A stretch of DNA of 64,000 nucleotides from assembly GCA_964523795.1 (NCBI GenBank), contig CAZGAO010000015.1:1695-65694 (forward strand). The letters are read 5' to 3'. The DNA is from an uncultured Lentimicrobiaceae bacterium (lineage in GTDB: Bacteria > Bacteroidota > Bacteroidia > Bacteroidales > 4484-276). The position numbers and the translations under genes are program-made. The stretch's first letter is position 1; the number at the start of each line of letters is the position of its first letter. The notes beneath the pieces were generated by a model, which searched no databases, had not been told where the DNA came from, and saw nothing but the letters and a program-made list of their open reading frames with translations. This document shows positions 3,686 to 59,664 of this stretch, in pieces.

Positions 3686-6628
3686 CTACCCACTCCTCGG
3701 ATCTTCCTGCACGGGCAGCTTGGCCATCTTTTGTACTATTAGGCTGGGGAAGCCGAATTCTTCTTCGATTTTTCCCAGGATTAAATAGATGCCGTGGCCT
3801 CTGAAATTATAATATTTCAGGGAATTGGGGAAGTGTGTGGTGTCGAAAAATTCGCCCTCATCATCGATAAAAGTGCCGAAGTGCATGATTTCGCCCCTGA
3901 CGGTTTTTACATATTTGCGCGTTACCAGCTCGCCAAGCATACGCACGGTTTTACCTATGTTGTCTTTCATCTCCCTTGCTTTTATTTCGCCCCGGAAGCT
4001 GGTTTTGAGTAAATCAAAATAGGTGATGGAAACTGGAAAGCCGATCAGCTCGATCTCATCATAAGCATCTTCGAGGGTGCTGTGAGCCAGTTGCGGCAGC
4101 TCAAACTGCTTGCTGCTGACGCGAAAGAGCGAACTTTGCATCACCTCCTTTTTGCTCTTTCCAAAAAACAAATGCGCATTCCAGAGCAGGCGGCTTTTGC
4201 TGGTGCCGGTAAAGCGCAAGGCTCCGCAGCGGATGAGCAGGATCAGTTGCTCCATGCCGGGGTGTACCCGCTCCATAAAATCTTCGAGGTCGGCATACAC
4301 GCCATGGATGCGGCGCTCCTCAACCATGCGAAGCGCGAGTTTGTATTCCAGGTTTTGGATGTGGATAAGTCCCACGAAAATTTCCTTGCCATAAATCGCA
4401 GTTTTGTAATGGCTGCGGTTGATGCAGGGCAATTCGATTTTTGCGCCGCAGCGGCGGGCTTCGTTAAAATAGACCCACGTTTTGTAGTAGCCGCCAAAGT
4501 TGTTGATTACTGCCGTCATAAACTCCAGCGGGTAATGCGCCTTGAGGTAGAGGCTCTGGAAACTCTCTACCGCGTACGATGCCGAATGGGCTTTTGAAAA
4601 GGCATAGCCGGCAAACGATTCTACCTGCCGCCACACCTCTTTGGTGGTCGCTTCGGGACGACCCAGTTGTTTGGCCTTTTCGTGGAAGCGTTCCACGATG
4701 CGCTGAAACTCTTCCTTGCCGCACACCTTGCCGCTCATGGCACGGCGCAGCACATCCGATTCGGCCAGGTCGAGGCCGGCGTAGTGGTGGCACACTTTCA
4801 GCACATCTTCCTGATAGACCATCACCCCGTAGGTTTCGCGCAGTTGCTGCTCCATCACCGGATGGAAATATTCAAAATCGTGGGGATTGTGAAAGCGGTG
4901 GATATATTCGCGCATCATCCCCGAGCGAGCCACCCCCGGACGGATGATGGAACTCGCCGCCACCAGCGTAAGGTAGTTGTCGCAGTGGAGCTTGGTGAGC
5001 AGCCCGCGCATGGCCGGGCTTTCGATGTAAAAGCAGCCGATGGTCTCCGCATTTTTGAGCTGGCTTTTTACCCGGGCATCTTTTTTAAACTTTCGCACAT
5101 TATGCACATCCACCTCCTCGCCACGGTTGCTCAGGATGATGTCGGCGCATTCTTTAATATGGCCTATGCCGCGCTGGCTCAGGATGTCCATTTTTTCAAA
5201 ACCCAGGTCTTCGGCCACGTACATGTCCCACTGTGTGGTGGGAAACCCCTTGGGCGGCATGTCCAGGGCGGTGTAGCAGGTGATGGGTTCTTCGGAGATA
5301 AGCATACCGCCGGCGTGGATGCTGCGCAGGTTGGGGAAGTCGATCATGCGCGTGGCCAGTCGCAGAATTTGCGTGCTGATGCTGTCGCGGTTCTGGCGGC
5401 GTTCGGGATATTTCACCAGATCATCAATTTCACTTTTGGGCAACCCATAAACTTTGCCCAGCTCGCGCAGGGGCGAGCGGTCTTTAAAGGTGTTGATGGT
5501 TCCCATTAGCGCGGTGTGCCTGCTGCCGTAGCGTTTAAAAATATAATCGATCACCTCATCGCGTTCCTTCCACGAGTAGTCGATGTCGAAGTCGGGCGGG
5601 CTGGTACGCTTGGGGTTGAGAAAACGCTCGAAGTACAAGTCCAGCTCGATGGGATCCACATCGGTAATTTTGAGGCAATAAGCCACTACGCTGTTGGCTC
5701 CGCTGCCCCGGCCTACATGGTAAAAGCCCCGATTCATCGAGTAGCGCACAATATCCCAGGCCATCAAAAAGTAGGACGAAAAGCCCAGCGTATCGATAAT
5801 TTCCAGCTCGTGCCGGATGCGCTGCCGGGCTGTTTTGTTATCCGCACCATAGCGGTAAGCCATGCCATCCAGGGCGAGTTTCTCCAGCAAAATCTTGTCA
5901 TCGTAGCGGCTGCCCGTAAATTCGCGCTTATTTTTTATGGTAGTAAAATCAAAATCAATCTCACAATCGGCGATCATCTTTTCGGTGTTGCGCACGATTT
6001 CGGGATAGTATTCAAAATCCTTGCGTAGCTGATCCGGGCTTTTGGGCATCTCGTCTTTAGCGGCCAGATCGCCAGGCGTGAGCATCGTAAAGAGCGTGTT
6101 TTTGGCAATGGCTCGCAGGTTGCGATGCAGCAGGTAGCCATCTTCATCGGCAAAAGTTACCGGATGGGCGATGATTAGGCGGGAGCGATCGGATGCAAAG
6201 GGCGACGAAACAATCCGGCTTGCTTCTGAAGGCTTGATGCCGATAAACTCGTTTTCGCGGAGCTTTCGTTTGGGACTGCCCGCAAAAGGCCAAATAACAA
6301 ATACATCGTCCAGGTGGCCGGGATCGTCGGGGAGTTCGATTTTGTTGAGGCTGTGCTGCGAATAAAACTCGTTGATGGCTCTGAAACCCTTGTTGTTTTT
6401 GGCAATGCCGATGTAGAGCAATTTCCCCTCACGGCGGAATTCCATCCCCCCGATGGCTTTGATGTCCGCTTTTTTGCAAGCTTTCACAAAGTCGATGGTG
6501 CCGGTGCTGTTGTTGATGTCGGTAAGTGCCATCGCTTCGATGCCGTTTTTTTTGGCTTCGGTCACTAGTGCGTCTATCGAAAGCGTGCCGTAGCGTAAAC
6601 TATAATATGAGTGTGCGTTGAGAATCAA
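3686..6628 (-). CDS. dnaE: DNA polymerase III alpha subunit, short Bacteroidota DnaE2-like type
   Basis: PHP start HSYYSLRYG, GRGSGANS, catalytic PDFDID and KMDIL, QSSLF clamp-motif-like, OB-fold end; 980 aa, TTG start. Confidence 0.92.
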   Translation of the reverse strand: MILNAHSYYSLRYGTLSIDALVTEAKKNGIEAMALTDINNSTGTIDFVKACKKADIKAIGGMEFRREGKLLYIGIAKNNKGFRAINEFYSQHSLNKIELPDDPGHLDDVFVIWPFAGSPKRKLRENEFIGIKPSEASRIVSSPFASDRSRLIIAHPVTFADEDGYLLHRNLRAIAKNTLFTMLTPGDLAAKDEMPKSPDQLRKDFEYYPEIVRNTEKMIADCEIDFDFTTIKNKREFTGSRYDDKILLEKLALDGMAYRYGADNKTARQRIRHELEIIDTLGFSSYFLMAWDIVRYSMNRGFYHVGRGSGANSVVAYCLKITDVDPIELDLYFERFLNPKRTSPPDFDIDYSWKERDEVIDYIFKRYGSRHTALMGTINTFKDRSPLRELGKVYGLPKSEIDDLVKYPERRQNRDSISTQILRLATRMIDFPNLRSIHAGGMLISEEPITCYTALDMPPKGFPTTQWDMYVAEDLGFEKMDILSQRGIGHIKECADIILSNRGEEVDVHNVRKFKKDARVKSQLKNAETIGCFYIESPAMRGLLTKLHCDNYLTLVAASSIIRPGVARSGMMREYIHRFHNPHDFEYFHPVMEQQLRETYGVMVYQEDVLKVCHHYAGLDLAESDVLRRAMSGKVCGKEEFQRIVERFHEKAKQLGRPEATTKEVWRQVESFAGYAFSKAHSASYAVESFQSLYLKAHYPLEFMTAVINNFGGYYKTWVYFNEARRCGAKIELPCINRSHYKTAIYGKEIFVGLIHIQNLEYKLALRMVEERRIHGVYADLEDFMERVHPGMEQLILLIRCGALRFTGTSKSRLLWNAHLFFGKSKKEVMQSSLFRVSSKQFELPQLAHSTLEDAYDEIELIGFPVSITYFDLLKTSFRGEIKAREMKDNIGKTVRMLGELVTRKYVKTVRGEIMHFGTFIDDEGEFFDTTHFPNSLKYYNFRGHGIYLILGKIEEEFGFPSLIVQKMAKLPVQEDPRSG

Positions 6629-6758
6629 TACTAAAATTATAAAATGATTATTATTTAATCAAAAATTAGTTTACAATATAGGTATTTTGTTGATGGTGGG
6701 ATTTTTATTTCATCAATTTTCGTGTGAGGCTTTGCAGGCTACACGGTTTTTTTTTGAC

Positions 6759-6785
6759 CGCAAAGTACGCGGAGGGCGCAAAGGA
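6759..6785. repeat. 9-mer tandem repeat (CGCAAAG family)
   Basis: cgcaaagta cgcggaggg cgcaaagga, with partial complement at 6718-6736. Confidence 0.5.
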
Positions 6786-6821
6786 TTTTTCTGTCGAAAA
6801 TTTAAGAAGAAACATTTGTTT

Positions 6822-7080
6822 GATGTCAGATGTCAGATGTCCGATGTCCGATGTTAGATATCCGATGTGAGATTTAAGATTTAAGATGTCCGCCTCACGG
6901 GTGGCATGGCAATCTTATTTTCTTTCCTTTAACCTTAGTAGAAAAATGATCCCTCATGAAAAATCAACCTTATTAATTTCCAGATTGGATAAGGTTAAGG
7001 GTGTGTTGTTGGCGAATTTTCTACTAAGGTTTTTATCCGAACATCTAAAATCTAAAATCTCCAATCTCCGATCTGAAATC
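6822..7080. repeat. Element A1: GAT 7-mer arm, 99-bp inverted-repeat core, complementary ATC 7-mer arm
   Basis: 10 GATNNNN units 6822-6891; core accttagtagaaaa 6932-6945 / ttttctactaaggt 7017-7030; 6 NNNNATC units 7039-7080. Confidence 0.85.
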
Positions 7081-7123
7081 AAAAACCCATCGTCAAATAA
7101 AAGAAATGCAGCGGGAATAATTC

Positions 7124-7131
7124 TAATTTTG
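7124..7131 (+). promoter_or_regulatory. Bacteroidota -7 promoter box
   Basis: TAATTTTG matches TAnnTTTG, 22 nt before ATG 7154. Confidence 0.55.
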
Positions 7132-7153
7132 CTCCCTAAAATTTTTAATATCC

Positions 7154-8221
7154 ATGCGAGAAATTATTTGTTTGTTTGGCTTGTCGATTCTCATATCTAA
7201 CGGCTTTGCCTTTGGTCAGGCTCAGGAGCTGCCCCGGATTTATCGGTGTGTAAAAACGGAACAGCCGTTAACGATTGATGGTCGTGCCGGGGAAGCAGCC
7301 TGGAAAAAGGCACGATGGACCAAAGATTTTGTGGACATCGAAAGCCGCCTGAAGCCAGCACCCGAGTTTCGTACACGCATAAAAATGCTGTGGGACGAAA
7401 ACGGGCTTTATATTTTTGCTGAATTGGAAGAGCCGCATATCTGGGCTAAGCTAAGTGAACGCGACCAGATTATTTATCACGACAACGATTTCGAGGTTTT
7501 TATCGATCCGGACGGCGACTATCACAATTATTTCGAGCTTGAAATCAATGCCCTCGGTACAGCTTTCGATTTGTTTATGAACCGACCCTACAACGCCGGT
7601 GGCCGCGCCTTGATTGGCTGGGATATTGCCGACCTTCAAACAGGAATATTTGCTGACGGAACCATCAACCAGCCCGATGATATCGACACGGCCTGGTGCG
7701 TAGAAATAGCTATTCCCTGGAAATCGTTGCAAGAGTTTGCGCCCCGCCGACAGCCACCACAAACCGAGGATATTTGGCGGATGAATTTTTCGCGCGTGCA
7801 ATGGGAAACCAAAATTGTGAAAGGCAAATACAAAAAACTAATGAACCCGGATAGCGGAAAGCCTTTGCCCGAGAGTAATTGGGTGTGGTCGCCCCAGGGG
7901 GCCATCAATATGCACCTGCCCGAAAAATGGGGATATGTTGTTTTTGCGAACCTGCCTGCCGACACCATTTTAACTATTGCCGATGTGGATCCTTATTTTA
8001 AAATAAAACAACAATTGCTGAATTTGTATCAACAGCAAAAAGATTTTTATAAACACAGGCAAAGGTATGCCTCCAGCCTTTACGAATTGAATAAGCAGGG
8101 ACGTAGTTCCGAAAATACCGTTCTTATCCAAGCTACCAGCTGGCAGTTTTTAATTTCGATCACCAGCGAAGATGGGAAGCGTTTATTTATCGACCACGAA
8201 AAAAGAATTTGGATGGAGTAG
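7154..8221 (+). CDS. Carbohydrate-binding family 9-like (DOMON-like) secreted protein
   Basis: Signal peptide; IDG...W, D.FEVFIDPD, YFELEINALG, W.MNFSRVQW, WVWSPQG motifs. Confidence 0.85.
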   Translation: MREIICLFGLSILISNGFAFGQAQELPRIYRCVKTEQPLTIDGRAGEAAWKKARWTKDFVDIESRLKPAPEFRTRIKMLWDENGLYIFAELEEPHIWAKLSERDQIIYHDNDFEVFIDPDGDYHNYFELEINALGTAFDLFMNRPYNAGGRALIGWDIADLQTGIFADGTINQPDDIDTAWCVEIAIPWKSLQEFAPRRQPPQTEDIWRMNFSRVQWETKIVKGKYKKLMNPDSGKPLPESNWVWSPQGAINMHLPEKWGYVVFANLPADTILTIADVDPYFKIKQQLLNLYQQQKDFYKHRQRYASSLYELNKQGRSSENTVLIQATSWQFLISITSEDGKRLFIDHEKRIWME

Positions 8222-14868: not shown

Positions 14869-16554
14869 ATGAAAAAACTGATCGAATGTGTCCCTAATTT
14901 TAGTGAGGGGAACGATATGACTATTATAAAACAAATCACCGATGAGATTGAAGCCGTTGATGGCGTGAAACTGCTGGATGTTGATCCCGGCAAGGCCACC
15001 AACCGCACGGTGGTAACATTGGTGGGTAGTCCTGACGAAGTAATCGAAGCCGCTTTTAGAGCTGTTAAAAAAGCATCGCAGATTATCGATATGAGCAAGC
15101 ACAAGGGCGAGCATCCGCGCATGGGTGCCACCGATGTGTGTCCGCTGGTTCCGGTGGCCAATATTACCATGGAAGAAACGGTGGAATACGCACGCAAACT
15201 GGCAAAGCGTATTGGCGAAGAGCTGGAGATACCGGTGTATTGCTACGAAAATGCTGCCCTTATCGAGAAGCGGCGAAATCTCGCCACCTGCCGTTCGGGC
15301 GAGTACGAAGGTCTGGCCGATAGGCTGAGCCGCCCCGAATGGAAACCCGATTTTGGCCCCGCAAAATTCAATGCCAAAAGTGGTGCTACCGCCGTGGGTG
15401 CCCGTGATTTCCTGGTGGCTTACAATGTTAATTTAAATACTACTTCTACCCGGCGTGCCAACGCCATTGCCTTCGATATTCGGGAGCGGGGACGCGTAAA
15501 ACGCGAAGGTGATTCCGTTAACGGAAAAATTGTAAAAGACGAAAAAGGAAACCAGGTGTATATTCCCGGCACGCTTAAATCGGTGAAGGGCATTGGCTGG
15601 TTTATCGAGGAATATGGCATAGCTCAGATTTCCTTGAACTTAACCAACATTAGCATTACTCCCGTTCATGTTGCTTTCGAGGAGGCTCTAAAAAAAGCTG
15701 CTGAACGTGGAATTCGTGTTACCGGCTCCGAATTGGTGGGTCTGATTCCTTTGAATGCCATGTTGGACGCGGGCAAGTATTTTCTGCGTAAGCAAAACCG
15801 TTCGGTTGGGATTTCCGAAAAAGAACTGATAAAAATTGCCGTTAAGTCGCTGGGGCTGGATGATCTGAAACCCTTTAAGCCCGAAGCCCGCATTATCGAG
15901 TATTTGATTGCTGATGACCAGGGCAAAAAACTGGTGGATATGAACCTGGCCGACTTTGCCGATGAAACGGCTTCAGAATCCCCTGCCCCCGGTGGTGGAT
16001 CTATCGCAGCCTACGCCGGTGTTTTGGGCATATCGCTTGGAACCATGGTGGCAAACCTTAGCTCGCACAAGCGTGGCTGGGACGATCGTTGGGAAGAGTT
16101 CTCTGATTGGGCCGAGAAAGGCCAAGTGATAAAAAACGAACTCCTCCACCTGGTGGATGAAGATACCCGCGCCTTCAACAAAATCATGGATGCCTTTGGC
16201 CTGCCCAAGAGCAGCGATGCCGAAAAGGCTGCCCGCAAACAAGCCATCGAAGATGCATCGAAATATGCGATGGAAGTACCTTTTAAAGTGATGCAAAAAT
16301 CACTCGATTCGATGGCCGTGATGAAGGCCATGGCCGAAGTTGGAAATCCGAATTCAGTTTCCGATGCCAGCGTTGGTGCCTTGTGTGCCCGCACCGCCGT
16401 GCGTGGTGCTTTTATGAACGTGCGGATCAATGCCTCGGGTGTGGAAGATAAAGCCTTTGTAAATAATCTGCTTGAAAAGGGCGGACAAATCGAGAGAGAT
16501 GCCAAAGCGATGGAAGTGGAAATCCTTAAAATTGTGGATGAGAAGATTGGTTAA
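14869..16554 (+). CDS. ftcD: Bifunctional glutamate formimidoyltransferase / formiminotetrahydrofolate cyclodeaminase
   Basis: LIECVPNFSEG, HPRMGATDVCP; C-terminal ASESPAPGGGS cyclodeaminase domain; 561 aa. Confidence 0.95.
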   Translation: MKKLIECVPNFSEGNDMTIIKQITDEIEAVDGVKLLDVDPGKATNRTVVTLVGSPDEVIEAAFRAVKKASQIIDMSKHKGEHPRMGATDVCPLVPVANITMEETVEYARKLAKRIGEELEIPVYCYENAALIEKRRNLATCRSGEYEGLADRLSRPEWKPDFGPAKFNAKSGATAVGARDFLVAYNVNLNTTSTRRANAIAFDIRERGRVKREGDSVNGKIVKDEKGNQVYIPGTLKSVKGIGWFIEEYGIAQISLNLTNISITPVHVAFEEALKKAAERGIRVTGSELVGLIPLNAMLDAGKYFLRKQNRSVGISEKELIKIAVKSLGLDDLKPFKPEARIIEYLIADDQGKKLVDMNLADFADETASESPAPGGGSIAAYAGVLGISLGTMVANLSSHKRGWDDRWEEFSDWAEKGQVIKNELLHLVDEDTRAFNKIMDAFGLPKSSDAEKAARKQAIEDASKYAMEVPFKVMQKSLDSMAVMKAMAEVGNPNSVSDASVGALCARTAVRGAFMNVRINASGVEDKAFVNNLLEKGGQIERDAKAMEVEILKIVDEKIG

Positions 16555-16564
16555 GCAATCTTAT

Positions 16565-16810
16565 GATGTCAGATTTCAGATTTCAGATGTCCGATTTTAG
16601 ATGTTGATGTTGATGTCTGATGTTAGATGTTTGATTTTTGATGTGACGAATGTGGAGCATAGACAAGCTTATTTTCATTTCTTCTACCTTAGTAGAAAAA
16701 TGATTCCACGGAAAAAATCAACCTTATTTTTTCATCATGATAGAAATAAGTTTGGTAGTTTATCTGGTTTGGATTTTCTACTAAGGTTAAAATGAAGAAG
16801 ATAAGCTTAT
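16565..16810. repeat. Element A2: GAT 7-mer arm plus 102-bp inverted-repeat core homologous to A1
   Basis: 12 GAT units 16565-16646; accttagtagaaaa 16686-16699 / ttttctactaaggt 16774-16787; stem extends through aagcttattttcattt / aaaatgaagaagataagctt. Confidence 0.8.
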
Positions 16811-16993
16811 CTGGGCAAGTCAGACAGGCTTGCTATATCACACATGCACCAGGAAATTTCTTGCTATCCAAAAGATTGCAAAATCATGTCATTGGTACTG
16901 GAAAACGTTGCGCAGTATGTTTTGGAGGGAGAAATCTAAAAATCGCGACATGAGATTTGCGCTGGGTCTGGATGTCTAAAGCTATCGGCTAAA

Positions 16994-17133
16994 TAGTGTT
17001 TGTCCATAAAATTGATTTTTTTTTGATTTAAGATTGACGATTGGAGATTTTAGATCGTGCTGAATATCACCAACATCTTAAATCTAAAATCATAAATCTC
17101 AAATCGTATATTTTTCTAACTATTACTTTAAAG
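16994..17133. mobile_element. Miniature element B, copy 1 (inverted relative to copy 2; one end truncated)
   Basis: Starts tagtgtttgtccataaa; internal GAT/ATC 7-mer arms; ends aaatcgtatatttttctaactattactttaaag 3 nt from the stop of the next gene. Confidence 0.7.
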
Positions 17134-17136
17134 TAA

Positions 17137-20100
17137 TCAAAACCCCTGATAAACCCGCACGAGCCTAATACTGCCGCTTCTCGAAAACAGGGCGGAAGAA
17201 TCACGGGCGGAAAGTGATTTTCCGGGATAGGAGCGCACCTCGCCATCGGCATCGTAAATAGTGATGCTGTTTTCGTTAGAGAGGGCGTAAACCACCGGAT
17301 GCTGACAATAAGTAAATGCCAGCTCTCCCTTGTTTAATTCGATTTCGGCAGGAGTGCCGTTTACATCAAAATACCGAAAAACCGATGGCTGCTGCAAAAA
17401 CTCTTTTCGCTTGAGGAAGAGCGGTTCAAAACTCAGGATTCCCTTGTGGATGCGTACGCCCAGTTCGGCCCAGCGGTTCAGGATGTCTTCTTTTACCTGG
17501 CCTGTCATGCCCGGCTGCTGTGCGCCTTTGCCCGCAGGGGTGTGCGAATAAGGATCGGTGGGAAAGGCTCCGTAAAGCTCCGGCGATTTGTTGATGCCGA
17601 TGCCCGCCCGTATTTCGTAATAATGATCAATCATGCGCCCGATTATTTCCGGGGCTGCATTATCGGCTTTGGCCTTGTAAATATTTTCCTGAACTGCCAC
17701 CAGCAATTTACTCACCATGTGCCAGTAGATGCTTCCCAATCCTTCGTAGCCAAAAAATGTTCCCGACCTGCCGGTAAAAGCCCGATGATTGAAAACCTGC
17801 TCGAAGGCTTCCATAAAATCGCTGTGCTCCACCTCGGCCAGGCCGGCATAATCGCTTTCGCGAAGCCGTGCCAGGGCAGCAACGAGGTCGTTTTTGTTGG
17901 TGAAATCGCTGTTGAAATGATAAATATCGTTTTCATCTTTTTGTATCACGCCGGTGTCGTTGGCCTGGAGCAGGGCTTTTGCCAGAGCCGAACCTTCGAC
18001 AAAGGAAGACGGGATAGTATTTTTACTAAGAAAGCCGGGCAAATTGCGGTCGGGGTAGAGCATGTAGCTGTACTGGTCGGGGCGGTACATTTTTCCGGCC
18101 TTGAGCTTATCCAGTAGTTTTAGTGCTTCATCGGCATCGAGCACGCCTGCCGAAAGCGCAGCCACCTGGCCTTCGAGCATTTCGTACAGAGGACTGATGC
18201 TCAATTTTTCATCCTCGAAGGTAACGAGATTATAGGCGTGGTAAAGGCCATCCTCGCGCTTGCTCACACGGATAGAATGATCGATCCATTGGAGGCTAAG
18301 CTCCAGAAAATCCTGGATACTTTTTTGGGGCAGGGCAACTTTTTTGCGGTCGAAACCACGGTAGGCTTCCTCGCTGTAAGCTTCCTCGCGATAGCTTTCG
18401 CCGATCTTGCCCAGGAGGTCTGCAACTTTTCTTCGTTCGTTATCCGAAATTTTATTTTGGAGCAATTCCTGATTTTCCTCTAATACTTTGCTTATTGCGC
18501 CAAGCATTTCGGCCACCGGCTGGTGGAATTCAATTTCGCTGTTCGTCTTTTCATCAAAAAGCGGAATGCAGAAATTCACAAATCGCCGCAGGTAGTAGAG
18601 CGTTACCATCGAGGTGCCGTTGCCCACCAGGGCATTGTTGGCATCGTTCCATTCGGGGCGCTGGGTGTTGAGCCAGATGCCGGCTTCGGGTATAAAATTG
18701 GACAGCTTGGCCAGGAGCGAAACCAGGAGTTTTTCGGCCAGGTTGGCTTTGATGGGTTCATCGTTGTTAAATACGATGAGCTTTCCATCGGCACCCACTT
18801 GCTGCACTTTTTCGCAAATTCGCTTTTCGAGCAATTCGTCAAAACTTATGGTGTCTTTGGGATTCCGCACAATTTCCTCATATTTTTTGATGCGATACGG
18901 AACATTGGCAAACACAAATATCGGTTTTTGCAGCATTGCCCTTAAATCTTCGGGGCAGTAGTTTTCGGCCAGCTCCATCAGTTTGAGCAGATAAATAATC
19001 TGGTGGTCGCCCCAGTATCCGATAAACGACCAGGCATCGTCAGGATCGACGATTTCCCAGTCGATGCCGCTGCGCATGATGCGGTAGGGGTTGTAACCAT
19101 CGATGGTGGAAGCGTTGACAAATCGGGTAATCATCGAGCGGATATATCCCGGGAAGGAAAAAGCCAGTGCCTCCCAGTTTTGAAAAATATCGCGCCAGTT
19201 GCCCTGGTAGTTCCGAAGTTTGGAGCCATCTTTATTTTTGATATCAATCGAAAACTTATTCCATGGGCGGCTGGGGTCGCCATGCCTGCGGCTGAACGAC
19301 AGGGGCAGATATTCGTAGCATATACGGATGAGGTCGGCATCGCTGTTTTTTTCAGCCGATTCGAGCAGCCTGTTGTAATTGAGGGTTTCGGGCAGGTCGT
19401 TAAAAAATTCCGCCTGTCGTGTTGTTAGTTTTTTGTTGATGGTATTAAAATAATCGATCAGATCCGATTTTTCCACCCGATATTGATCGGTAAAAATGCC
19501 ACCCCGCATAATATTGAAAAGCACATTGGAAAAATGCCGACCTACACTCAGCTCATCGCCGGTAGCTTGCAGGCCATCAGCCATCGCGGCAAGCTTTTTA
19601 AGCGACTGGGATCCGGCCTCAATGTCCAATTCCAGCGAGTGGATGATTTTGTTTTTGTCTTTTTTTAATTGATTAATCAGCTTTGCGGTGCTGCTATGAT
19701 CCTGATTAAGTTCGGCTACCTGAACCCAGCTAGTTTTACTTTCCGCAGCCAAGGCCAGATTGGATTTTATAAAATAGGCTCCCGCCTCGGCTTTGATATC
19801 GGTTTCGGTATTTAATTTAATTCCCTTTTTAAAATTATTGATTTGAAGTAAGGACAGGAGCACGCATTCAGCCTCGATGCCGGCGTGCCACACCGTTGTA
19901 GCTTTGAGTGCTTCGGCGGGCTCGGCCTTATCTACAATCATCGCGCTAAGCGAAAAAATCCCCAGACCTGATGCCTGGTGCAGCTCATTTCGTTTGTAGG
20001 CATTTACCAGATTGCTGCTTTGATTTTGCAGAGCCGCCCCTACGCCATAAGGCAGGATGTTTTGGATGCCATCCAAAACTTCAACAGTAGCGGATTTCTT

Positions 20101-20607
20101 ATCCCAATTGGTGAGGGTCGATTTTTTGACGATACCAAACTTTTCTGAAAACTGCCATGAATAGCTGAAGGAGAGTTTCATATCTTGATTGATCTCTTCG
20201 AATATGATTTTGTTTCCGGTTCCGTTTTTATACAAATCCCGGCTTATTTTATAAATCCCGGCGCATCTTTCAGAAAAGGGTTCCCAAAGCAAAATTTTTC
20301 CATTTTCATGGATTTTTATCAGGGTTTTGCTGCCGGTAGTTTCGCCGGTAGCCATAATTTTATCATCGGTGTAGTAGGGGAGGAGTGCGCTGTTTTCGTT
20401 GCGGCGACCTACGGTGAGGCCGCCATTGGAGGCGATGAAAAGCCAGTGGTCAGAATGGCTCACCAGGCTGACGAAAAACGGGCGCATCCGATCGTAGTTG
20501 GCGATTTTGTAAAACTGCTCATTTTCGATGGTGAGATAGGTGCCGCTTACTTCTTCGGTATTTGTTTTTAAAAGATTGTTGCCGAGATAAATATTTGGTT
20601 CTGTCAT
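17137..20607 (-). CDS. GH149-like beta-1,3-glucan phosphorylase
   Basis: 1156 aa, no signal peptide; RRHGDPSRPWN, YQGNWRDIFQNWE, YEGLGSIYWHMVSKL, GAQQPGMTGQVKE motifs recalled for GH149; context with GH16 and MFS. Confidence 0.8.
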   Translation of the reverse strand: MTEPNIYLGNNLLKTNTEEVSGTYLTIENEQFYKIANYDRMRPFFVSLVSHSDHWLFIASNGGLTVGRRNENSALLPYYTDDKIMATGETTGSKTLIKIHENGKILLWEPFSERCAGIYKISRDLYKNGTGNKIIFEEINQDMKLSFSYSWQFSEKFGIVKKSTLTNWDKKSATVEVLDGIQNILPYGVGAALQNQSSNLVNAYKRNELHQASGLGIFSLSAMIVDKAEPAEALKATTVWHAGIEAECVLLSLLQINNFKKGIKLNTETDIKAEAGAYFIKSNLALAAESKTSWVQVAELNQDHSSTAKLINQLKKDKNKIIHSLELDIEAGSQSLKKLAAMADGLQATGDELSVGRHFSNVLFNIMRGGIFTDQYRVEKSDLIDYFNTINKKLTTRQAEFFNDLPETLNYNRLLESAEKNSDADLIRICYEYLPLSFSRRHGDPSRPWNKFSIDIKNKDGSKLRNYQGNWRDIFQNWEALAFSFPGYIRSMITRFVNASTIDGYNPYRIMRSGIDWEIVDPDDAWSFIGYWGDHQIIYLLKLMELAENYCPEDLRAMLQKPIFVFANVPYRIKKYEEIVRNPKDTISFDELLEKRICEKVQQVGADGKLIVFNNDEPIKANLAEKLLVSLLAKLSNFIPEAGIWLNTQRPEWNDANNALVGNGTSMVTLYYLRRFVNFCIPLFDEKTNSEIEFHQPVAEMLGAISKVLEENQELLQNKISDNERRKVADLLGKIGESYREEAYSEEAYRGFDRKKVALPQKSIQDFLELSLQWIDHSIRVSKREDGLYHAYNLVTFEDEKLSISPLYEMLEGQVAALSAGVLDADEALKLLDKLKAGKMYRPDQYSYMLYPDRNLPGFLSKNTIPSSFVEGSALAKALLQANDTGVIQKDENDIYHFNSDFTNKNDLVAALARLRESDYAGLAEVEHSDFMEAFEQVFNHRAFTGRSGTFFGYEGLGSIYWHMVSKLLVAVQENIYKAKADNAAPEIIGRMIDHYYEIRAGIGINKSPELYGAFPTDPYSHTPAGKGAQQPGMTGQVKEDILNRWAELGVRIHKGILSFEPLFLKRKEFLQQPSVFRYFDVNGTPAEIELNKGELAFTYCQHPVVYALSNENSITIYDADGEVRSYPGKSLSARDSSALFSRSGSIRLVRVYQGF

Positions 20608-20668
20608 TTTATTTAAAATTACCCACTTTGGTATAGTTCTTAAATTTATAATCGTTGATAAGCTACTG

Positions 20669-20676
20669 CAAAAATA
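20669..20676 (-). promoter_or_regulatory. -7 promoter box upstream of GH149-like gene
   Basis: CAAAAATA on + equals TATTTTTG on -, about 60 nt before the start. Confidence 0.5.
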
Positions 20677-20688
20677 ATCTGTTCTATT

Positions 20689-20710
20689 AATATTTCGGTG
20701 CGCTGCACCT
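20689..20710. repeat. REP-like repeat (CGGTGC family), solo copy
   Basis: aatatttcggtgcgctgcacct is the exact reverse complement of 1588-1609. Confidence 0.8.
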
Positions 20711-20836
20711 TACAGAGTTTGCGTAATATTAAAAGCAAGGTTTTGCAGAATATCAAAAACCTTGCATCTGAAGTGTATCATTTTTACATACAATCCAAGC
20801 TATCAGAGTAGTATTGCTTATTAATTGAACACAATT

Positions 20837-20992
20837 TAGTGTCTGTCTTTAAAGTAACAGTTAGAAAAATATACGATTTCAGATTAACGATTTCAGATTT
20901 AGGATGTAGGTGATATTGACCACAATCTAAAATCTCCGATCTTTAATCTTCAATCTTAAATCAAAAATTGCTCACTTTGTTGTCAAACACTA
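20837..20992. mobile_element. Miniature element B, copy 2 (156 bp, both termini)
   Basis: tagtgtctg...caaacacta terminal inverted repeats; GAT arm 20875-20909, ATC arm 20921-20962; terminal CTA is the TAG stop of the GH158-like gene. Confidence 0.8.
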
Positions 20993-22315
20993 CTTAACGT
21001 AAAATGGAATATTGGCAGTTGCGGACTTATTGTTGCCATCGGCAGCATAAACGAAAATGCGATAGGCACCGGGAGTTTCCGGAGCGGTAAAACTTAGTTC
21101 AGGCTCCTGCGAAGTGCTTTGCAAAATTGTTTCGGGACGCTTTTCAAAGTCGCCGCCATCGCTTTGGTGGTGCTCGGGAACCTCTGGCATAATTTCCCAA
21201 CGATAAGTTAGCGCATCGTTTTCCGGATCGCTCACCCGGGCTGCGGCCTTTGCCGTGAACCCCGGAGCGAGATAAATATTTTGGTAAGCCGTTTGTCCAT
21301 CCACCTCAAACGAATCGAGTGCCGGTGCTCTGTTTTCGGGCCATTGGCCTGTCCACACAAATTCCATCACGTCCACTGCCTCGGTGCTATGACCGTTTTC
21401 GAGGAACATGCCGTACCAGGTGGGCGTGCGTTCTTGCTTTTGTCCCCACAAAAACACAAACGAGCCGATGCAGTGCTTCGGGTCTCCGGCAATGGCACTT
21501 TGGTAGCGATCGTGATAATCCAGTGCTTTTTGGTGGCTGGTGGGTTCGATGGGGCGACCCCATGCAGTTTTGCCTACTTCCCAGTGGCCGGTGGCACCCC
21601 ATTCGCTTACAACATAAGCCCCCGTGTAGTTGGCTTCGTGGAGGTAGCGTGGCAGGTTAACAATGTCGCCATAGAGTTGAAAACTGAGATAATCCAAGTC
21701 CGGGCATCTTTCGGCAAGCACAGCCAGCACATTTTTGTCGGCACCGGCAAGCATGGTAGTTACCGGATGGTTTGGATCGATTTCATGAATCATTTCAGCG
21801 ATTTCGTTTACGGCATCCCACACTTTTGGATTGTCGTAATGAAGGTTTAATTCGTTTCCCACGCCCCAGGCCAGGAGGGCAGGATGGTCTTTGTATTTTA
21901 ATACTTCAGCCCTGGCGTATTCAAATTGTTCGCGCACAGCCGCATTATCGTTATAATCGAAGCCATGCCTTTCGCGGGCAATTTCGAGACCCATGCACAC
22001 CATCAGGCCATTTTTTTGGGCCTCGTCCAGAATTTCGTTGCCTTTGCGGCATTGCGTATCGGTACGCCAGGTGCGCATGGCATTGCCACCATGGGCTGCC
22101 AGCGATTGGATGTCGCCACATTCAAGCCCTGCACCTTTTATATAAAACGGTTCCCCGTTTACATACAATTGGTAGCTTCCGGCTTCCGCCTTCAAAGTTA
22201 CTTGCGAGGCCTGGCTGTGCTTATCTTTCTCTTTGCTGTTTTGACACCCAAAACTCAAGGTTAAAATCGTGATGGCAGCGAGGAATAGTATTGTATTTCG
22301 TTTATTAATTTTCAT
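20990..22315 (-). CDS. GH158-like beta-1,3-glucanase lipoprotein (GH2-like TIM barrel plus Ig domain)
   Basis: Lipobox SFGC; PFYIKGAG, AMRTW, WGVGNELN, SEWG.TGHWE, GSFVFLWGQKQERTPTW; clan GH-A NE/E catalytic pair. Confidence 0.8.
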   Translation of the reverse strand: MKINKRNTILFLAAITILTLSFGCQNSKEKDKHSQASQVTLKAEAGSYQLYVNGEPFYIKGAGLECGDIQSLAAHGGNAMRTWRTDTQCRKGNEILDEAQKNGLMVCMGLEIARERHGFDYNDNAAVREQFEYARAEVLKYKDHPALLAWGVGNELNLHYDNPKVWDAVNEIAEMIHEIDPNHPVTTMLAGADKNVLAVLAERCPDLDYLSFQLYGDIVNLPRYLHEANYTGAYVVSEWGATGHWEVGKTAWGRPIEPTSHQKALDYHDRYQSAIAGDPKHCIGSFVFLWGQKQERTPTWYGMFLENGHSTEAVDVMEFVWTGQWPENRAPALDSFEVDGQTAYQNIYLAPGFTAKAAARVSDPENDALTYRWEIMPEVPEHHQSDGGDFEKRPETILQSTSQEPELSFTAPETPGAYRIFVYAADGNNKSATANIPFYVK

Positions 22316-22337
22316 TGTAAAATAGATTTAAGGAATT

Positions 22338-23900
22338 TTATTTTTTTACCAGCATTACTTCCAGCTCTTCCAGCGATTTACCCTTCGTTTCGGGCAGGAT
22401 GATGATTATGAATATCAAGCCCACCGCAGCAAACAAGCCATAAATCAAAAAAGTTAGCGAACTACCCAAAGCGGCAAGCTCCCACGGAAATACCAATTGT
22501 ACCGTAAAGCTTACGCCCGAGTTGATAAATCCGGCAAAGCTTATGGCCAGCCCACGAACGCTATTGGGAAACAATTCAGAAAACAGGACCCACATCACCG
22601 GCCCAAGCGAGATGGCAAAGGAAGCCACAAAACCGATTATCCCGATAAGGATAAGCCAGGCATTCATGCTGATGCTTGCCGTTATCAAGTCCGATTCAAT
22701 TTTCTTGGCTTCGATTTCGCCGTATGCCTTATTGATGGCATTTTTGAAAGCTACATCGCTCTGATAGGTTTTGCCAACCATCGCAGTGGTCTTGCTCCTT
22801 TCGATGTGCTCGGGCAGGCTTTGCACCGATTCGGGGGTGAGGGTGTAAGTGGCCGTGCTGAAGCCCCACGAAAGCAGAAACATACTCAGGGCGATACCCG
22901 TGAGGCCGAAGACAAGCAGAATCTTGCGCCCAAAGCGGTCGATAAACATGATGGCCAGGATGGTAAATACCAGGTTGGTTAATCCTACCAGGATGGCCTG
23001 CGAGAACGATGCATCGGTGCCAATGCCCGATTGTTCAAAAATCATGGGTGCGTAGAAAAACACGGAATTGATTCCGGTGATTTGCTGCAGAACAGCCACC
23101 ACAATTCCGATAGTGAGCACCAGGCGCAATGCGGGTTTGAATAACTGCGAAATGGGAACGCGCTTTTTGCTGTCTTCTTTCAGCAGGGAGGCTTCAACGG
23201 CATCCAGGTCTTTTTGTGCCTGTGCCTGAGAGGATACTCTTTTTAAAATGGCCAGGGCTTCTTGTGGTCTCGATTTTAGGATGAGCCAACGCGGGCTTTC
23301 GGGCACGGTAAACAGAAAGCCGAAATATAGTATCGCCGGGATTGTTTCAAGACCCAGCATCCATCGCCATTGATAAATATCAAAACCGAGGGCTTTGGTC
23401 CAGGAGGCATCCGATTGGCTAAATTGCAAAATAAGATAATTGGTAAAAAAAGCCACCGAAATACCAATCACAATATTGAGCTGATTGAACGAAACCATGC
23501 GTCCCCGAATATTGGGAGGCGATATTTCGGCAATATACATGGGCGCAATAATAAGTGAGGCCCCTACTCCGAAGCCGCCCACCATGCGGGCAATCACCAG
23601 CGTTACAAAATCGGGAGCCAGTGCCGAGGCAATGGCGGAGATGGCATACAGAGATGCCGCAATTTTGAGGATGGGTTTGCGCCCGTAAGTGGTGCTCAAG
23701 GGGCCGGCCAGAATCATGGCAAGCGTTGAGGTGAGTGTAAGCGAGCTAACAGCCCAGCCCAACTCCAGTTTGGAAAGTACAAACTCAGGTTCGATAAACT
23801 TTACCACACCCGAAATAACGGAGGCATCGAAACCCATCAAAAAGCCGCCCAATGCAACAATGAGGGAAATTCGGATTGTATATTTTTGCTCTTTGTTCAT
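22338..23900 (-). CDS. MFS sugar porter family transporter
   Basis: ALGGFLMGFD, YGRK, PMYIAEISP, PESPRWL, QQITGIN, DRFGRK, PETKGKSLEE. Confidence 0.95.
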   Translation of the reverse strand: MNKEQKYTIRISLIVALGGFLMGFDASVISGVVKFIEPEFVLSKLELGWAVSSLTLTSTLAMILAGPLSTTYGRKPILKIAASLYAISAIASALAPDFVTLVIARMVGGFGVGASLIIAPMYIAEISPPNIRGRMVSFNQLNIVIGISVAFFTNYLILQFSQSDASWTKALGFDIYQWRWMLGLETIPAILYFGFLFTVPESPRWLILKSRPQEALAILKRVSSQAQAQKDLDAVEASLLKEDSKKRVPISQLFKPALRLVLTIGIVVAVLQQITGINSVFFYAPMIFEQSGIGTDASFSQAILVGLTNLVFTILAIMFIDRFGRKILLVFGLTGIALSMFLLSWGFSTATYTLTPESVQSLPEHIERSKTTAMVGKTYQSDVAFKNAINKAYGEIEAKKIESDLITASISMNAWLILIGIIGFVASFAISLGPVMWVLFSELFPNSVRGLAISFAGFINSGVSFTVQLVFPWELAALGSSLTFLIYGLFAAVGLIFIIIILPETKGKSLEELEVMLVKK

Positions 23901-24050
23901 GTTCAGAATTGTTGGTAAAAAAAAATGAAGCTGCCTGAGAAAACATCACCCAATGAAAAAAAACAACATGTATCAAAAACTTCAATAATCGGCAGCCCCA
24001 TCTGTTTCTTAGTTTTATAAAAAATCTGTTTTTTGATATTAAAAATAAAA

Positions 24051-25409: not shown

Positions 25410-25759
25410 AATGTGTAGTTTAGAGTTCAAATAATTTAAAAGTAATGCTAAATAGTGTTTGCTAAAAAACTCGAAACAATTTGTTATTTATCCCATTGCA
25501 TAAGTGCTTAACATTAGCCAAAACCGGAAAGGTGAAAAGTAAAATCAGAATTAAAAAAATGTGGCTTGGTTTAGGCTTCATTTTATGATAAATTAACAAA
25601 GGTGTAAAGATATACAAATGATGCTGGTTCCTGATTTTTCTTCTTGTGAAAAGAAAGGATTGATTAAGCCGGAGTGGTGATAAGTATTAATTTTAAAAAG
25701 GAAATTCTTGTTTGGTTTATTTTAAAATTGGAACAGAAATTAAACCCCTAAAAAATTTT

Positions 25760-25797
25760 AGCCACGAAAGAAATTAAAAAATCTCTGTTTCGTGGCT
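25760..25797. repeat. Hairpin of the GCCACNAA family
   Basis: agccacgaaa 25760-25769 / tttcgtggct 25788-25797. Confidence 0.5.
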
Positions 25798-25828
25798 TGG
25801 TTAAACATTAGGCGACAGGCAGTGGGTA

Positions 25829-26086: not shown

Positions 26087-26337
26087 AGTGCAGATATGTT
26101 GGTTTGCTAATTTTTTAATTTTATAAAGGTAATACTATTTGTAAACATGGCCTTGCTTTGTCCCATACTTATCAACAAGTTTTGAACAAGCAAATTATAT
26201 TGAATGATTTAAAAATTTGAACGAATTGGTTTTAATTGTATTTACTGTTGTGAAAATTAAATTAATTTTGAACCCGCGAATAAAGAACTTGTTATGTTCT
26301 AATAATTTTTTTTAACTCACTTAATAATATCGACAAA

Positions 26338-35032: not shown

Positions 35033-35059
35033 AGTAAATTTGAGTGTGGTGTATAAATA

Positions 35060-35186
35060 TTATCTGTTTTTAAAGGAATTGTTAGAAAAATATACGATTT
35101 GAGAATAACGATTTTAGATTTAAGATGTAGATGATATTCAACACAATCTAAAATCTCTGATCTTAATCCTCAATCTTAAATCAAAA
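35060..35186. mobile_element. Miniature element B, copy 3 (degenerate ends)
   Basis: gttagaaaaatatacgattt...cacaatctaaaatct...caatcttaaatcaaaa aligns with 20860-20966. Confidence 0.75.
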
Positions 35187-35342
35187 GATTTAATTAGACA
35201 TCCAACACCAAAACAGGGTTTAGGTTTTAATGAAAAGATATTGTTAACAAAATTTTGGATATGTGGAAAACTTTTTCACGATTTTGCTGTGGCGGATAAC
35301 TGGAATAGCCTACTTTTATGCCATTCTGAATTTGAAAATGAT

Positions 35343-59585: not shown

Positions 59586-59598
59586 TGAAATCTCTTTA

Positions 59599-59664
59599 GA
59601 TGTTAGATGTCAGATGTGCGATGTGCGATGTCCGATGTTTACCCCACATCTAAAATCTAAAAAT
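59599..59664. repeat. GAT/ATC 7-mer hairpin without cargo
   Basis: 6 GATGTNN units 59599-59640 then ccacatc taaaatc taaaaat 59644-59664. Confidence 0.75.

What the first reader, a model, noticed from the sequence alone, without database searches (positions are those of the whole stretch)
6822..7080. Complementary 7-mer tandem arms that bracket interchangeable cargo in intergenic gaps
Seen: a run of GATNNNN units is followed by a run of NNNNATC units, so arms can pair in shifting register in either orientation. The architecture recurs with different contents: a 99-bp core here, almost nothing at 59599-59664, short loops in the three B elements (16994, 20837, 35060), a one-armed version at 16565. 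Several start within a few nt of a stop codon. Recalled knowledge: similar heptamer arrays flank four-helix-bundle (TIGR02436, 23S IVS-type) genes in Bacteroidota; no such gene is in this window. Inference: these are empty or re-loaded units of an unexplained mobile or RNA-processing system in which 7-nt-register stems are recognised in trans. This is my best candidate for an undescribed system here.
Basis: partly seen in the sequence, partly recalled or inferred. Interest (0 to 1): 0.7.

Follow-up and report, generated by a model that had tools for sequence, protein, structure and literature searches.

The report
Heptamer-armed hairpin repeats without their gene
The element is one decayed, cargo-carrying copy of a genome-wide family of hairpin repeats whose 7-base-repeat arms match those around a small four-helix-bundle ("rRNA intervening-sequence") gene elsewhere in the genome, linking bacterial heptamer repeats to one gene family.

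Summary
At 6822-7085, ten GATNNNN units and six NNNNATC units bracket about 150 bp. Genome-wide there are 252 such arrays at 176 loci. Neighbouring arrays lie GAT-arm-then-ATC-arm 54 times and the reverse twice.

With the cargo cut out, the element aligns with about 18 cargo-free compact hairpins. It also aligns with the ends of a cassette on another contig (C19) that encloses a PF05635/TIGR02436 four-helix-bundle gene.

Arm type follows protein clade:
- 40 of 68 relatives of the C19 gene, from several phyla, have GAT/ATC heptamer arms, and none has GTCATT/AATGAC arms.
- 28 of 54 relatives of a second gene of this genome have GTCATT/AATGAC arms of period 10-11, and none has GAT arms.

The "99-bp core" is the apex of another palindromic repeat family.

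The three "B elements" are different. They are ordinary MITEs with terminal inverted repeats and a 6-bp TANNTA target duplication, and the heptamer arms lie inside them.

Arm lengths drift independently. There is no strand bias relative to transcription, no terminator-like T-tract, and no RNA data.

Best reading: these are gene-less, probably selfish DNA hairpins derived from four-helix-bundle cassettes. Recognition in trans by the protein is inferred, not shown.

The parts
6822..6890 (.). 5' arm: ten GATNNNN units (GATGTCA/GATGTCC, then GATTTAA x2 and GATGTCC)
   Evidence: C15:8516-8585
6891..6933 (.). Start of the cargo: a short GC hairpin (CCGCCTCACGGGTGG) plus the truncated left flank module of the C-type palindromic repeat (cttattttctttcctttaac)
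   Evidence: compared with full copies
6934..7028 (.). Cargo core: a 95-nt hairpin, CTTAGTAGAAAA...TTTTCTACTAAG. It is the apex of a separate palindromic repeat family of more than 20 loci
7029..7042 (.). Junction gtttttATCCGAAC. ATCCGAAC is the loop-to-right-arm junction seen in cargo-free compact copies
7043..7085 (.). 3' arm: six NNNNATC units (ATCTAAA x2, ATCTCCA, ATCTCCG, ATCTGAA, ATCAAAA)
   Evidence: C15:8733-8774
59596..59664 (.). Cargo-free compact copy: [GATGTNN]x6, loop TTACCCCAC, then ATCTAAAATCTAAAA. It starts 10 nt after a stop codon
16564..16644 (.). One-armed GAT array that abuts a left-truncated copy of the C-type repeat
16688..16785 (.). Second copy of the core hairpin, with its full right flank module up to about 16910
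16975..17135 (-). B-family MITE copy in reverse orientation, with heptamer arms at 17025-17105 and one terminal repeat degenerate
20839..20990 (+). B-family MITE copy: GTGTCTGTC...GTCAAACAC terminal inverted repeats, internal arms at 20875-20962 that are 11 nt apart, and flanking hexamers aattta/tactta
35058..35212 (+). Older, degenerate B-family copy with arms at about 35096-35187

Best explanation
The element at 6822-7085 is a decayed copy of a genome-wide family of palindromic intergenic repeats. Their stems are built from GAT(G/T)NNN heptamers on the 5' side and the complementary NNN(A/C)ATC heptamers on the 3' side.

The family is the gene-less counterpart of an arm-gene-arm cassette that carries a PF05635/TIGR02436 four-helix-bundle gene (the '23S rRNA intervening-sequence protein', Avd-like). 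One intact cassette with the same arms sits at C19:49049-49630.

The most likely history:
1. Internal deletion of the gene and inner arms gives a compact hairpin, [GATGTCN]n-GATGTT-loop-AACATCTAAAATC....
2. These hairpins are copied to new intergenic sites by an unknown route that leaves no target duplication.
3. The arms then lengthen and shorten independently by replication slippage.
4. The exposed loop is a preferred place for other palindromic repeats to lodge. Here the lodger is the apex of a 'CTTAGTAGAAAA' hairpin repeat.

The elements act as DNA-level selfish or neutral sequence. They are tolerated next to gene 3' ends and are not strand-specific RNA signals.

The B elements are a separate lineage. 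They are ordinary transposase-moved MITEs (terminal inverted repeats, 6-bp TANNTA target duplication) whose interior carries the same kind of arms.

Shown: the anatomy, polarity, copy number and B-element target duplications; the identity of the arms with the cassette ends; the arm-to-protein-clade correspondence across genomes.

Inferred: derivation from the cassette by deletion; copying of the compact hairpins; any binding of the arms by the four-helix-bundle protein.
For: - Pairing polarity is 54:2.
- There are 252 arrays at 176 loci.
- Hairpin stability averages z of about -4. The finding's element has z = -3.7.
- With cargo removed, the finding aligns base for base with about 8 compact copies and with the ends of the C19 cassette (copies listed).
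- 4 of the 5 PF05635 genes in this genome sit between complementary tandem arms, each with its own unit: GATGTCN, GAATATY, AATGACTATC and a unit of about 22 nt.
- Across genomes, 40 of 68 C19-clade loci have GAT7 upstream and ATC7 downstream. Distant flanks hold only 14 arrays in 115 kb.
- Cross-table of arm type against clade: C19 clade 40/68 GAT7 and 0 GTCATT; C3 clade 0/54 GAT7 and 28/54 GTCATT/AATGAC.
- In 80 genomes of the order, one per family, GAT-array load correlates with TIGR02436 gene number (Spearman 0.51, p = 1e-6; presence/absence Fisher p = 0.004).
- There is no orientation bias relative to transcription.
- Elements are enriched between convergent genes and lie close to stop codons.
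- Arm lengths are uncorrelated.
- B-family terminal repeats and direct TANNTA duplications: 11 of 20 scorable copies are exact, and 6 of those are non-palindromic. A seventh non-palindromic case can be read.
Against: - No empty or filled allele pair was found for any A-type copy. Four salt-lake metagenome runs show only the reference allele, and the nearest species genomes are too distant, about 60% protein identity, with no arrays at the orthologous gene.
- No target duplication or defined terminus was seen for A-type copies, so mobility is inferred only from dispersed copies that share loop and arms.
- The clade-to-arm correspondence could arise purely from arms and gene travelling together, without any protein-arm recognition.
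- Some genomes have GAT-type arrays but no TIGR02436 gene (G020, G056).
- Within the C19 clade, unit sequence tracks protein distance only weakly (Mantel r = 0.14, p = 0.04).
- The right arm of the finding (ATCTAAA-type) is a poor complement to its GATGTCN units. Only the inner GATTTAA units pair well.
Confidence: 0.55

Rival explanations
1. All of these are conventional MITEs moved by DDE transposases. The four-helix-bundle gene is just another passenger that lodges in hairpin loops, like the other cargo, with no functional tie to the arms.
For: - The B family has clear terminal inverted repeats and a 6-bp target duplication.
- The 4HB gene occupies the same loop position as unrelated cargo.
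- Some B copies also carry loop inserts.
- Repeats of several families cluster together in intergenic regions.
Against: - A-type copies show no target duplication and no terminal repeat outside the arrays.
- No full-length insertion sequence with B-type ends was found.
- Arm type is specific to 4HB clade across phyla (40/68 against 0/54, and 0/68 against 28/54). A random passenger would not show this.
- 4 of the 5 4HB genes in this genome have their own private arm type.
Confidence: 0.17
2. The hairpins are host-useful RNA elements. They would be RNase III processing or stability sites, or bidirectional terminators, at the ends of transcripts, as in rRNA intervening sequences. The four-helix-bundle gene would be an accessory factor.
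For: - Elements lie close to stop codons (25 of 188 3'-facing sides within 15 nt) and are enriched between convergent genes.
- The stems are long and stable.
- The same protein family sits in rRNA intervening sequences excised by RNase III (PMC4990558, known).
Against: - There is no orientation bias and no strand asymmetry.
- The T-run lies before the stem and the A-run after it on both strands, the reverse of an intrinsic terminator.
- The finding itself lies between divergent genes.
- The unit numbers of the two arms drift independently.
- There was no Rfam match.
- Proximity to 3' ends is also the usual pattern for tolerated selfish repeats.
- No RNA data could be obtained.
Confidence: 0.13
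3. These are ordinary heptamer microsatellites (LSSR/STRR type) that arise in place by slippage. Pairing and the gene link would be incidental.
For: - Heptamers are the commonest long simple repeats in many bacteria (Mrazek 2007, as cited in PMC4679880).
- Arm lengths are uncorrelated.
- Many arrays are one-armed, and other unit classes in this genome are mostly unpaired.
- Some genomes have arrays without any 4HB gene.
Against: - The polarity is 54:2.
- Dispersed copies share non-repeat loop and junction sequence.
- B copies share about 74% mean identity over 180 bp, with target duplications.
- The arms are tightly localised at 4HB genes, with clade-specific core motifs.
Confidence: 0.07

Closest known systems
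ORF-bearing intervening sequences (IVS) of 23S rRNA (Coxiella burnetii, Leptospira; ORF = S23p, PF05635)
   Same: A stem of complementary arms encloses either a PF05635 four-helix-bundle gene or nothing. Both are regarded as selfish elements. The same protein family sits at the intact cassette of this genome (PMC4990558).
   Different: - The location is between protein-coding genes, not in helix 25 or 45 of 23S rRNA.
- The arms are tandem heptamers of variable number.
- There are hundreds of gene-less copies per genome.
- No RNase III excision has been shown.
MITEs (miniature inverted-repeat transposable elements), e.g. Correia/NEMIS, ERIC, Nezha
   Same: Both are small, non-coding, hairpin-forming, multi-copy and intergenic. 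The B family meets the full definition, with terminal inverted repeats and a target duplication.
   Different: A-type copies, including the finding, have no target duplication and no fixed termini. Their ends are slippage-prone arrays. The presumed autonomous partner encodes a 4HB protein with no known nuclease or transposase fold.
REP/REPIN elements with their RAYT (Y1 transposase) partner (PMC3116915)
   Same: Many extragenic palindromes are paired with one or a few copies of a specific gene that is itself flanked by the same palindromes. Distinct gene clades go with distinct repeat sequences.
   Different: The partner gene is PF05635, not a Y1/HUH transposase. The only good Y1 gene of this genome (C10:21558-21893) has no such flanks. 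The repeats are tandem heptamers, not a single 20-30-nt palindrome.
Cyanobacterial STRR and other intergenic heptamer repeats (TAACTGA repeats of Beggiatoaceae, Cyanobacteria and Bacteroidetes, PMC4679880)
   Same: Both are period-7 intergenic tandem arrays with a sporadic phylogenetic distribution and unknown function. They have been noted in Bacteroidetes.
   Different: Those reports treat arrays as direct repeats, often upstream of start codons. They describe neither the inverted pairing with fixed polarity nor a link to PF05635 genes.

Membership tests
ORF-bearing 23S rRNA intervening sequence | Inserted in a 23S rRNA helix (25 or 45) | tested here: not met
   The element lies between two protein ORFs (3686-6628 minus strand, 7154-8221 plus strand). 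No rRNA or other Rfam match lies in the window.
ORF-bearing 23S rRNA intervening sequence | Complementary arms form a stem around the insert | tested here: met
   The fold shows the outer arm stem. Genome-wide z is about -4.
ORF-bearing 23S rRNA intervening sequence | Encloses a PF05635 (S23p) ORF | tested here: not met
   The ORFs in or over the cargo have no Pfam hit, and no TIGR02436 hit lies on this contig. The feature is met only by the sister cassette at C19.
ORF-bearing 23S rRNA intervening sequence | Excised from the transcript by RNase III | not testable with these tools
   No RNA runs are available.
MITE | Terminal inverted repeats with fixed ends | tested here: inconclusive
   B copies: met (GTGTCTGTC.../...GACAGACAC). 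The finding and other A-type copies: the inverted arms are the arrays themselves, sometimes extended by TCTTTT/AAAAGA, and have no fixed end.
MITE | Target-site duplication | tested here: not met
   None is seen at the finding or at 17 other A-type copies. It is met for the B family: direct TANNTA hexamers, 11 of 20 exact, 6 of them non-palindromic.
MITE | A related autonomous element that encodes a transposase | tested here: not met
   No long element with B-type ends was found. The gene-bearing relative of the A-type encodes a 4HB protein, not a transposase. The assembly is 96% complete and fragmented, so absence is weak evidence.
REP/REPIN-RAYT | A Y1 (RAYT) gene flanked by the same palindromes | tested here: not met
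   The PF01797 gene at C10:21558-21893 has no GAT arrays or other repeats in its flanks.
Heptamer microsatellites (LSSR/STRR) | Tandem period-7 arrays whose copy number varies by slippage | tested here: met
   TRF finds period 7. Unit numbers differ between copies and are uncorrelated between arms.
Intrinsic terminator | GC-rich stem followed by a T-tract on the transcribed strand | tested here: not met
   The stems are AT-rich. The T-run precedes the stem and the A-run follows it on both strands. The finding lies in a divergent gap.
Heptamer-armed PF05635 cassette (unpublished pattern reported in this scan) | Arms of the clade-specific unit with fixed polarity | tested here: met
   GATGTCN on the 5' side and NNNNATC on the 3' side, the same as the C19 cassette and its closest relative L006 (GATGTCA/ATCGGAC).
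Heptamer-armed PF05635 cassette (unpublished pattern reported in this scan) | PF05635 gene between the arms | tested here: not met
   No such gene or detectable remnant lies at 6891-7042. The element is therefore filed as a gene-less derivative, not a cassette.

The most novel reading that the evidence does not exclude
PF05635 four-helix-bundle proteins (S23p/Avd-like) are sequence-specific binders of the periodic stems formed by their own arms. The core motif would be GAT(T/G) every 7 nt for one clade and GTCATT every 10-11 nt for another.

Each gene with its arms would be the autonomous member of a previously unrecognised class of hairpin element. The hundreds of gene-less heptamer hairpins are copied or maintained in trans, analogous to REPIN-RAYT but without a known nuclease.

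rRNA intervening sequences, cyanobacterial STRR arrays and these Bacteroidota hairpins would then be one superfamily.
Probability: 0.25. Interest if true: 0.85.

Novelty: new variant of a known kind. Interest (0 to 1): 0.6.

Why it matters
Two old loose ends in bacterial genomics are the function of the ORF found in rRNA intervening sequences (PF05635, also the Avd partner of diversity-generating retroelements) and the origin of abundant intergenic heptamer repeats.

This genome shows them side by side:
- One gene-bearing cassette and about 175 gene-less loci share the same arms.
- Different gene clades have different arm motifs, and this correspondence holds across phyla.

That makes a concrete hypothesis testable: protein-arm recognition, with gene-less hairpins as non-autonomous derivatives. 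Simple binding and mobilisation assays in cultured Bacteroidota would test it.

There is also a practical point. Such arrays break short-read assemblies, and they can be mistaken for regulatory repeats or terminators.

Tried and rejected
- **Empty sites in public reads.** Logan contigs of four salt-lake metagenomes (X1-X4) were laid on 6300-7500 and 16000-35900. They show only the reference allele. The 'skips' of 172-182 nt have short sides and are other compact copies of the genome, not empty alleles.
- **RNA evidence.** No RNA runs are available.
- **Orthologous gaps in relatives.** The best same-genus orthologue of the flanking gene is only 62% identical, and none of 11 loci has arrays. The relatives are too distant for excision footprints.
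- **Covariation in the B family.** Unit-number indels make the arm alignment ambiguous, and RNAalifold kept only 6 pairs. This test was abandoned as uninformative.
- **A transposase partner.** No long element with B-type ends exists in the assembly. The one good Y1 transposase gene is not flanked by repeats.
- **Rfam.** No match at gathering threshold.
- **A 4HB remnant in the cargo.** No Pfam hit for ORFs over the cargo, and no extra TIGR02436 hits.
- **Fine-scale tracking within the C19 clade.** Unit sequence tracks protein distance only weakly (Mantel r = 0.14, p = 0.04).
- **Pairing in other unit classes of this genome.** The GAATAT, GTCATT, GTTAT and GGAGT classes are mostly one-armed. 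The paired architecture is therefore a property of the GAT class, not of all arrays.
- **Literature.** No paper in the searchable library links PF05635 to heptamer arms.

Full report
**Observation**

- 6822-6890 holds ten GATNNNN units, mostly GATGTCA and GATGTCC.
- 6891-7042 holds about 150 bp of non-periodic sequence.
- 7043-7085 holds six NNNNATC units.

Tandem Repeats Finder reports period 7 for both arrays. The other listed sites are also real:
- a compact copy at 59596-59664;
- three 'B' copies whose two arms are exactly 11 nt apart;
- a one-armed array at 16564-16644.

The region lies between two divergently oriented long ORFs, 3686-6628 on the minus strand and 7154-8221 on the plus strand. 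Folded as a single strand, it gives an outer stem made by the arms and an inner hairpin made by the core. The DNA free energy is -38.3 kcal/mol with z = -3.7, and none of 200 shuffles folds as well.

**Genome-wide picture**

The window is C15:1695-65694 of a 5.35-Mb, 172-contig assembly with 43% GC. Earlier notes of this scan call it an uncultured Bacteroidota genome, and the DNA recurs in salt-lake metagenomes.

Arrays of at least four units number 125 for GATNNNN and 127 for NNNNATC. Other non-AT-only trinucleotides of comparable frequency give 12-49 arrays; AAT and ATT, themselves repeat-unit classes here, give 119 and 137. Period 7 is the dominant tandem-repeat period in the genome.

Neighbouring arrays within 800 bp are GAT-then-ATC 54 times and ATC-then-GAT twice (p = 4e-14). 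Both arrangements would form hairpins, so the fixed polarity is a property of the element and not of pairing as such.

The arrays fall at 176 loci:
- 85 between tandem genes;
- 37 between convergent genes;
- 18 between divergent genes;
- 25 inside crude ORF calls;
- 11 at contig ends.

This is a mild excess at convergent gaps. Element sides that face a gene's 3' end lie closer (median 82 nt, 25 of 188 within 15 nt) than sides that face a 5' end (median 233 nt, 5 of 150 within 15 nt).

Orientation relative to transcription is unbiased: 13:12 for the B family and 24:15 for GATGT arrays. The two strands fold equally well, with a mean energy difference of -0.1 kcal/mol. Unit numbers in the two arms are uncorrelated, with rho 0.12 for non-B pairs and -0.38 for B pairs.

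**Three kinds of element**

*B family, about 39 copies.* An alignment shows a discrete unit of 150-200 bp. It has terminal inverted repeats GTGTCTGTC(T)TTAAAG... and ...GACAGACAC. The heptamer arms (GATTTNA and ATCTNAA) lie inside it.

The hexamer just outside each end is the same in direct orientation: tagtta/tagtta, tattta/tattta twice, taaata/taaata twice, taagta/taagta, and several taatta/taatta pairs. Of 20 scorable copies, 11 match exactly, and 6 of those are non-palindromic. A seventh non-palindromic case can be read.

A terminal repeat would show the reverse complement at the far end. These hexamers are therefore target-site duplications at a TANNTA target. The B family is a conventional MITE. 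No full-length partner was found in this fragmented assembly. Some B copies carry an extra insert in the loop.

*Compact A-type hairpins, about 18 copies.* The layout is [GATGTCN]n GATGTT, a loop such as TACCCGA, then ACATCTAAAATC followed by further NNNNATC units. The copies often end in GACATC and are sometimes extended by TCTTTT/AAAAGA. No target duplication is visible.

*A-type copies with cargo.* The cargoes seen are:
- the element under study;
- C3:3962 (64 bp);
- C65:9828 (193 bp);
- C4:82144 (261 bp of GC-rich modules and AGACGCGCAA hairpins);
- C31:36805 (a TGGAGTN array of about 30 units);
- C19:49049-49630, whose cargo is a 119-codon gene.

**What the finding is**

With 6891-7033 cut out, the two arms align with the compact copies. 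They also align with the ends of the C19 cassette after its gene and inner arms are cut out...GATGTCCGATGT | T(T/A)A(C/T)CC(G/C)AACATCTAAAATCT.... The element is therefore a compact hairpin with about 150 bp lodged in its loop.

The lodged DNA is not unique. Its 95-nt hairpin (6934-7028, CTTAGTAGAAAA...TTTTCTACTAAG) has more than 20 relatives in the genome. Six of them are about 90% identical. The relatives are normally embedded in a larger palindrome with CCTGNCTGGCCAGNCAGGCTTAT flank modules. The copy in the finding keeps only part of the left module and none of the right one. The copy at 16688-16785 keeps the right module, while its left side is replaced by the one-armed GAT array.

About 9 of 24 such cores lie within 400 bp of a GAT array. 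The 'interchangeable cargo' is thus nesting of repeat families in and beside the hairpins.

**Link to the four-helix-bundle gene**

The genome has five TIGR02436 hits, none on the window's contig. The four proteins scanned (all except the C10 copy) pass Pfam's PF05635 threshold. The closest solved structure is 2RLD, which has five chains in the entry.

Four of the five genes sit between complementary tandem arms, and each has its own unit:
- C19: GATGTCN, period 7;
- C131: GAATATY, period 7;
- C3: AATGACTATC, period 10;
- C33: a unit of about 22 nt.

*Relatives of the C19 protein.* I fetched 80 loci that encode proteins 55-66% identical to it. They come from species-representative genomes of Bacteroidota, Ignavibacteria, KSB1, Calditrichota, Cloacimonadota and others. 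Of the 68 loci with complete flanks, 40 have at least 3 GATNNNN units within 300 bp upstream and at least 3 NNNNATC units within 300 bp downstream. The distant flanks hold only 14 arrays in 115 kb. The closest relative, L006, has the very unit of this genome (GATGTCA/ATCGGAC).

*Relatives of the C3 protein.* I fetched 79 loci from metagenomes, 56-80% identical. They carry GTCATT-containing arrays upstream and AATGAC-containing arrays downstream, mostly of period 10-11.

*Cross-table.*
- C19 clade: 40 of 68 with GAT7 arms, 0 of 68 with GTCATT/AATGAC arms.
- C3 clade: 0 of 54 with GAT7 arms, 28 of 54 with GTCATT/AATGAC arms. With relaxed motifs, 39 have the upstream array and 49 the downstream array.

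*Genomes of the same order.* In 80 genomes, one per family, the number of GAT-array windows correlates with the number of TIGR02436 genes (Spearman 0.51, p = 1e-6). Presence against absence gives Fisher p = 0.004. There are exceptions: G020 has 17 array windows and no gene. These figures are not corrected for genome size or phylogeny.

**Interpretation**

The arms of the finding are those of a PF05635 cassette, and gene-less copies outnumber the gene by about 175 to 1. This is the pattern of non-autonomous derivatives of a gene-bearing element, as with MITEs and insertion sequences or REPINs and RAYTs.

Several results fit selfish or neutral DNA-level hairpins better than strand-specific RNA signals:
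- dispersed copies share non-repeat loop sequence;
- the polarity is fixed;
- there is no strand bias;
- elements are tolerated next to 3' ends;
- the arms drift independently;
- other repeats nest in the loops.

The clade-specific core motifs (GAT(T/G) and GTCATT) are conserved while the rest of the unit varies. This suggests that the motif itself is under constraint, most simply as a binding site for the encoded protein. The family's known member Avd binds nucleic acid and reverse transcriptase; I state this from general knowledge and did not test it here.

Co-travel of gene and arms would also give the cross-table, so trans recognition stays an inference. The copying mechanism of A-type hairpins is unknown.

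**Rivals**

The rival readings, with the evidence for and against each, are given in the Rival explanations section. In brief:
- A pure MITE reading fits the B family. It does not fit the A-type or the clade-specific arms.
- A host RNA role (processing, stability or termination) is not excluded. It has no positive support here, and the sequence lacks terminator features.
- Plain microsatellites are contradicted by the polarity, the shared loops and the gene link.

**Comparison with the known, and novelty**

The closest described systems are:
- ORF-bearing 23S rRNA intervening sequences (PMC4990558);
- MITEs;
- REPIN-RAYT pairs (PMC3116915);
- the heptamer repeats noted in Beggiatoaceae, Cyanobacteria and Bacteroidetes (PMC4679880).

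None of the papers found links PF05635 genes to inverted heptamer arrays.

Earlier unchecked notes of this scan report the same cassette design in other genomes. I tested their central claims independently here, namely arms around the gene, the unit tracking the clade, and orphan arms. All three held.

I rate the finding a new variant of a known kind: IVS-like and MITE-like palindromic repeats. The bolder reading, that this is a new class of element with a 4HB partner, is still open.

Noticed in passing
window 6934-7028 and 16688-16785; more than 20 further loci, e.g. C13:40772, C10:65787, C33:28773, C107:15725, C108:7099: A family of 95-137-nt hairpins, CTTAGTAGAAAA...TTTTCTACTAAG. The interior varies but still pairs (AACCTTACCTTATT/AATAAGGTAAGGTT). 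The hairpin is usually embedded in a larger palindrome with CCTGNCTGGCCAGNCAGGCTTAT modules. Six copies are about 90% identical.
   Followed up: partly
window 43339-43383 and 47107-47142: Two period-14 arrays (GTTAATTGTTATTC and GTTAATCGTTATTT) lie in the same orientation 3.7 kb apart. They belong to another unit class (AACGATT/AACAATT, about 35 arrays genome-wide), for which no 4HB gene was found in this assembly.
   Followed up: no
G000 C131:8016-8860 (L002): The 4HB gene at C131 is preceded by three copies of a 100-bp tandem repeat. Each copy contains the GAATATCGAA...GAATATTGAATATCGAA arm, so a whole arm-plus-leader block has been triplicated.
   Followed up: no
G000 C31:36805-37327: A GATGTCN hairpin encloses an array of about 30 units of TGGAGT(T/A/G)(T/G), a different repeat class, plus nested ATCTAAA and GACATC arms.
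   Followed up: no
genome-wide, e.g. C42:1200-1330, C43:24440-24560, C30:47180-47280: Other small palindromic repeat families are abundant and often abut the heptamer arrays: GTCAC(C/A)CCGTGAAT...ATTCACGG(G/T)GTGAC hairpins (107 motif hits), AGACGCGCAA(N)TTGCGCGTCT hairpins (176 hits), and GC-rich GGTTCGCAGCCCC...GGGATAGCAACCC modules.
   Followed up: partly
window 6748-6800: A 53-bp stretch just left of the element (cgcaaagtacgcggagggcgcaaagga...) is matched by several other contigs in the metagenome runs. It is therefore also a dispersed repeat.
   Followed up: no
G000 C10:21558-21893: A single IS200/RAYT-like Y1 transposase ORF (PF01797, 65 bits, 155 aa) has no recognisable repeats in its flanks.
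   Followed up: partly
G000 C10:30843-31160: This is the only TIGR02436 gene of the genome without tandem-repeat arms. It is followed by a plain 14-bp-stem hairpin and may be a different functional subtype.
   Followed up: no
window 34031-34064: Contigs from two runs turn back on themselves here (joint 34064 to 34031, with 17 letters between). This is the signature of a perfect palindrome or REP at which assemblies break.
   Followed up: no
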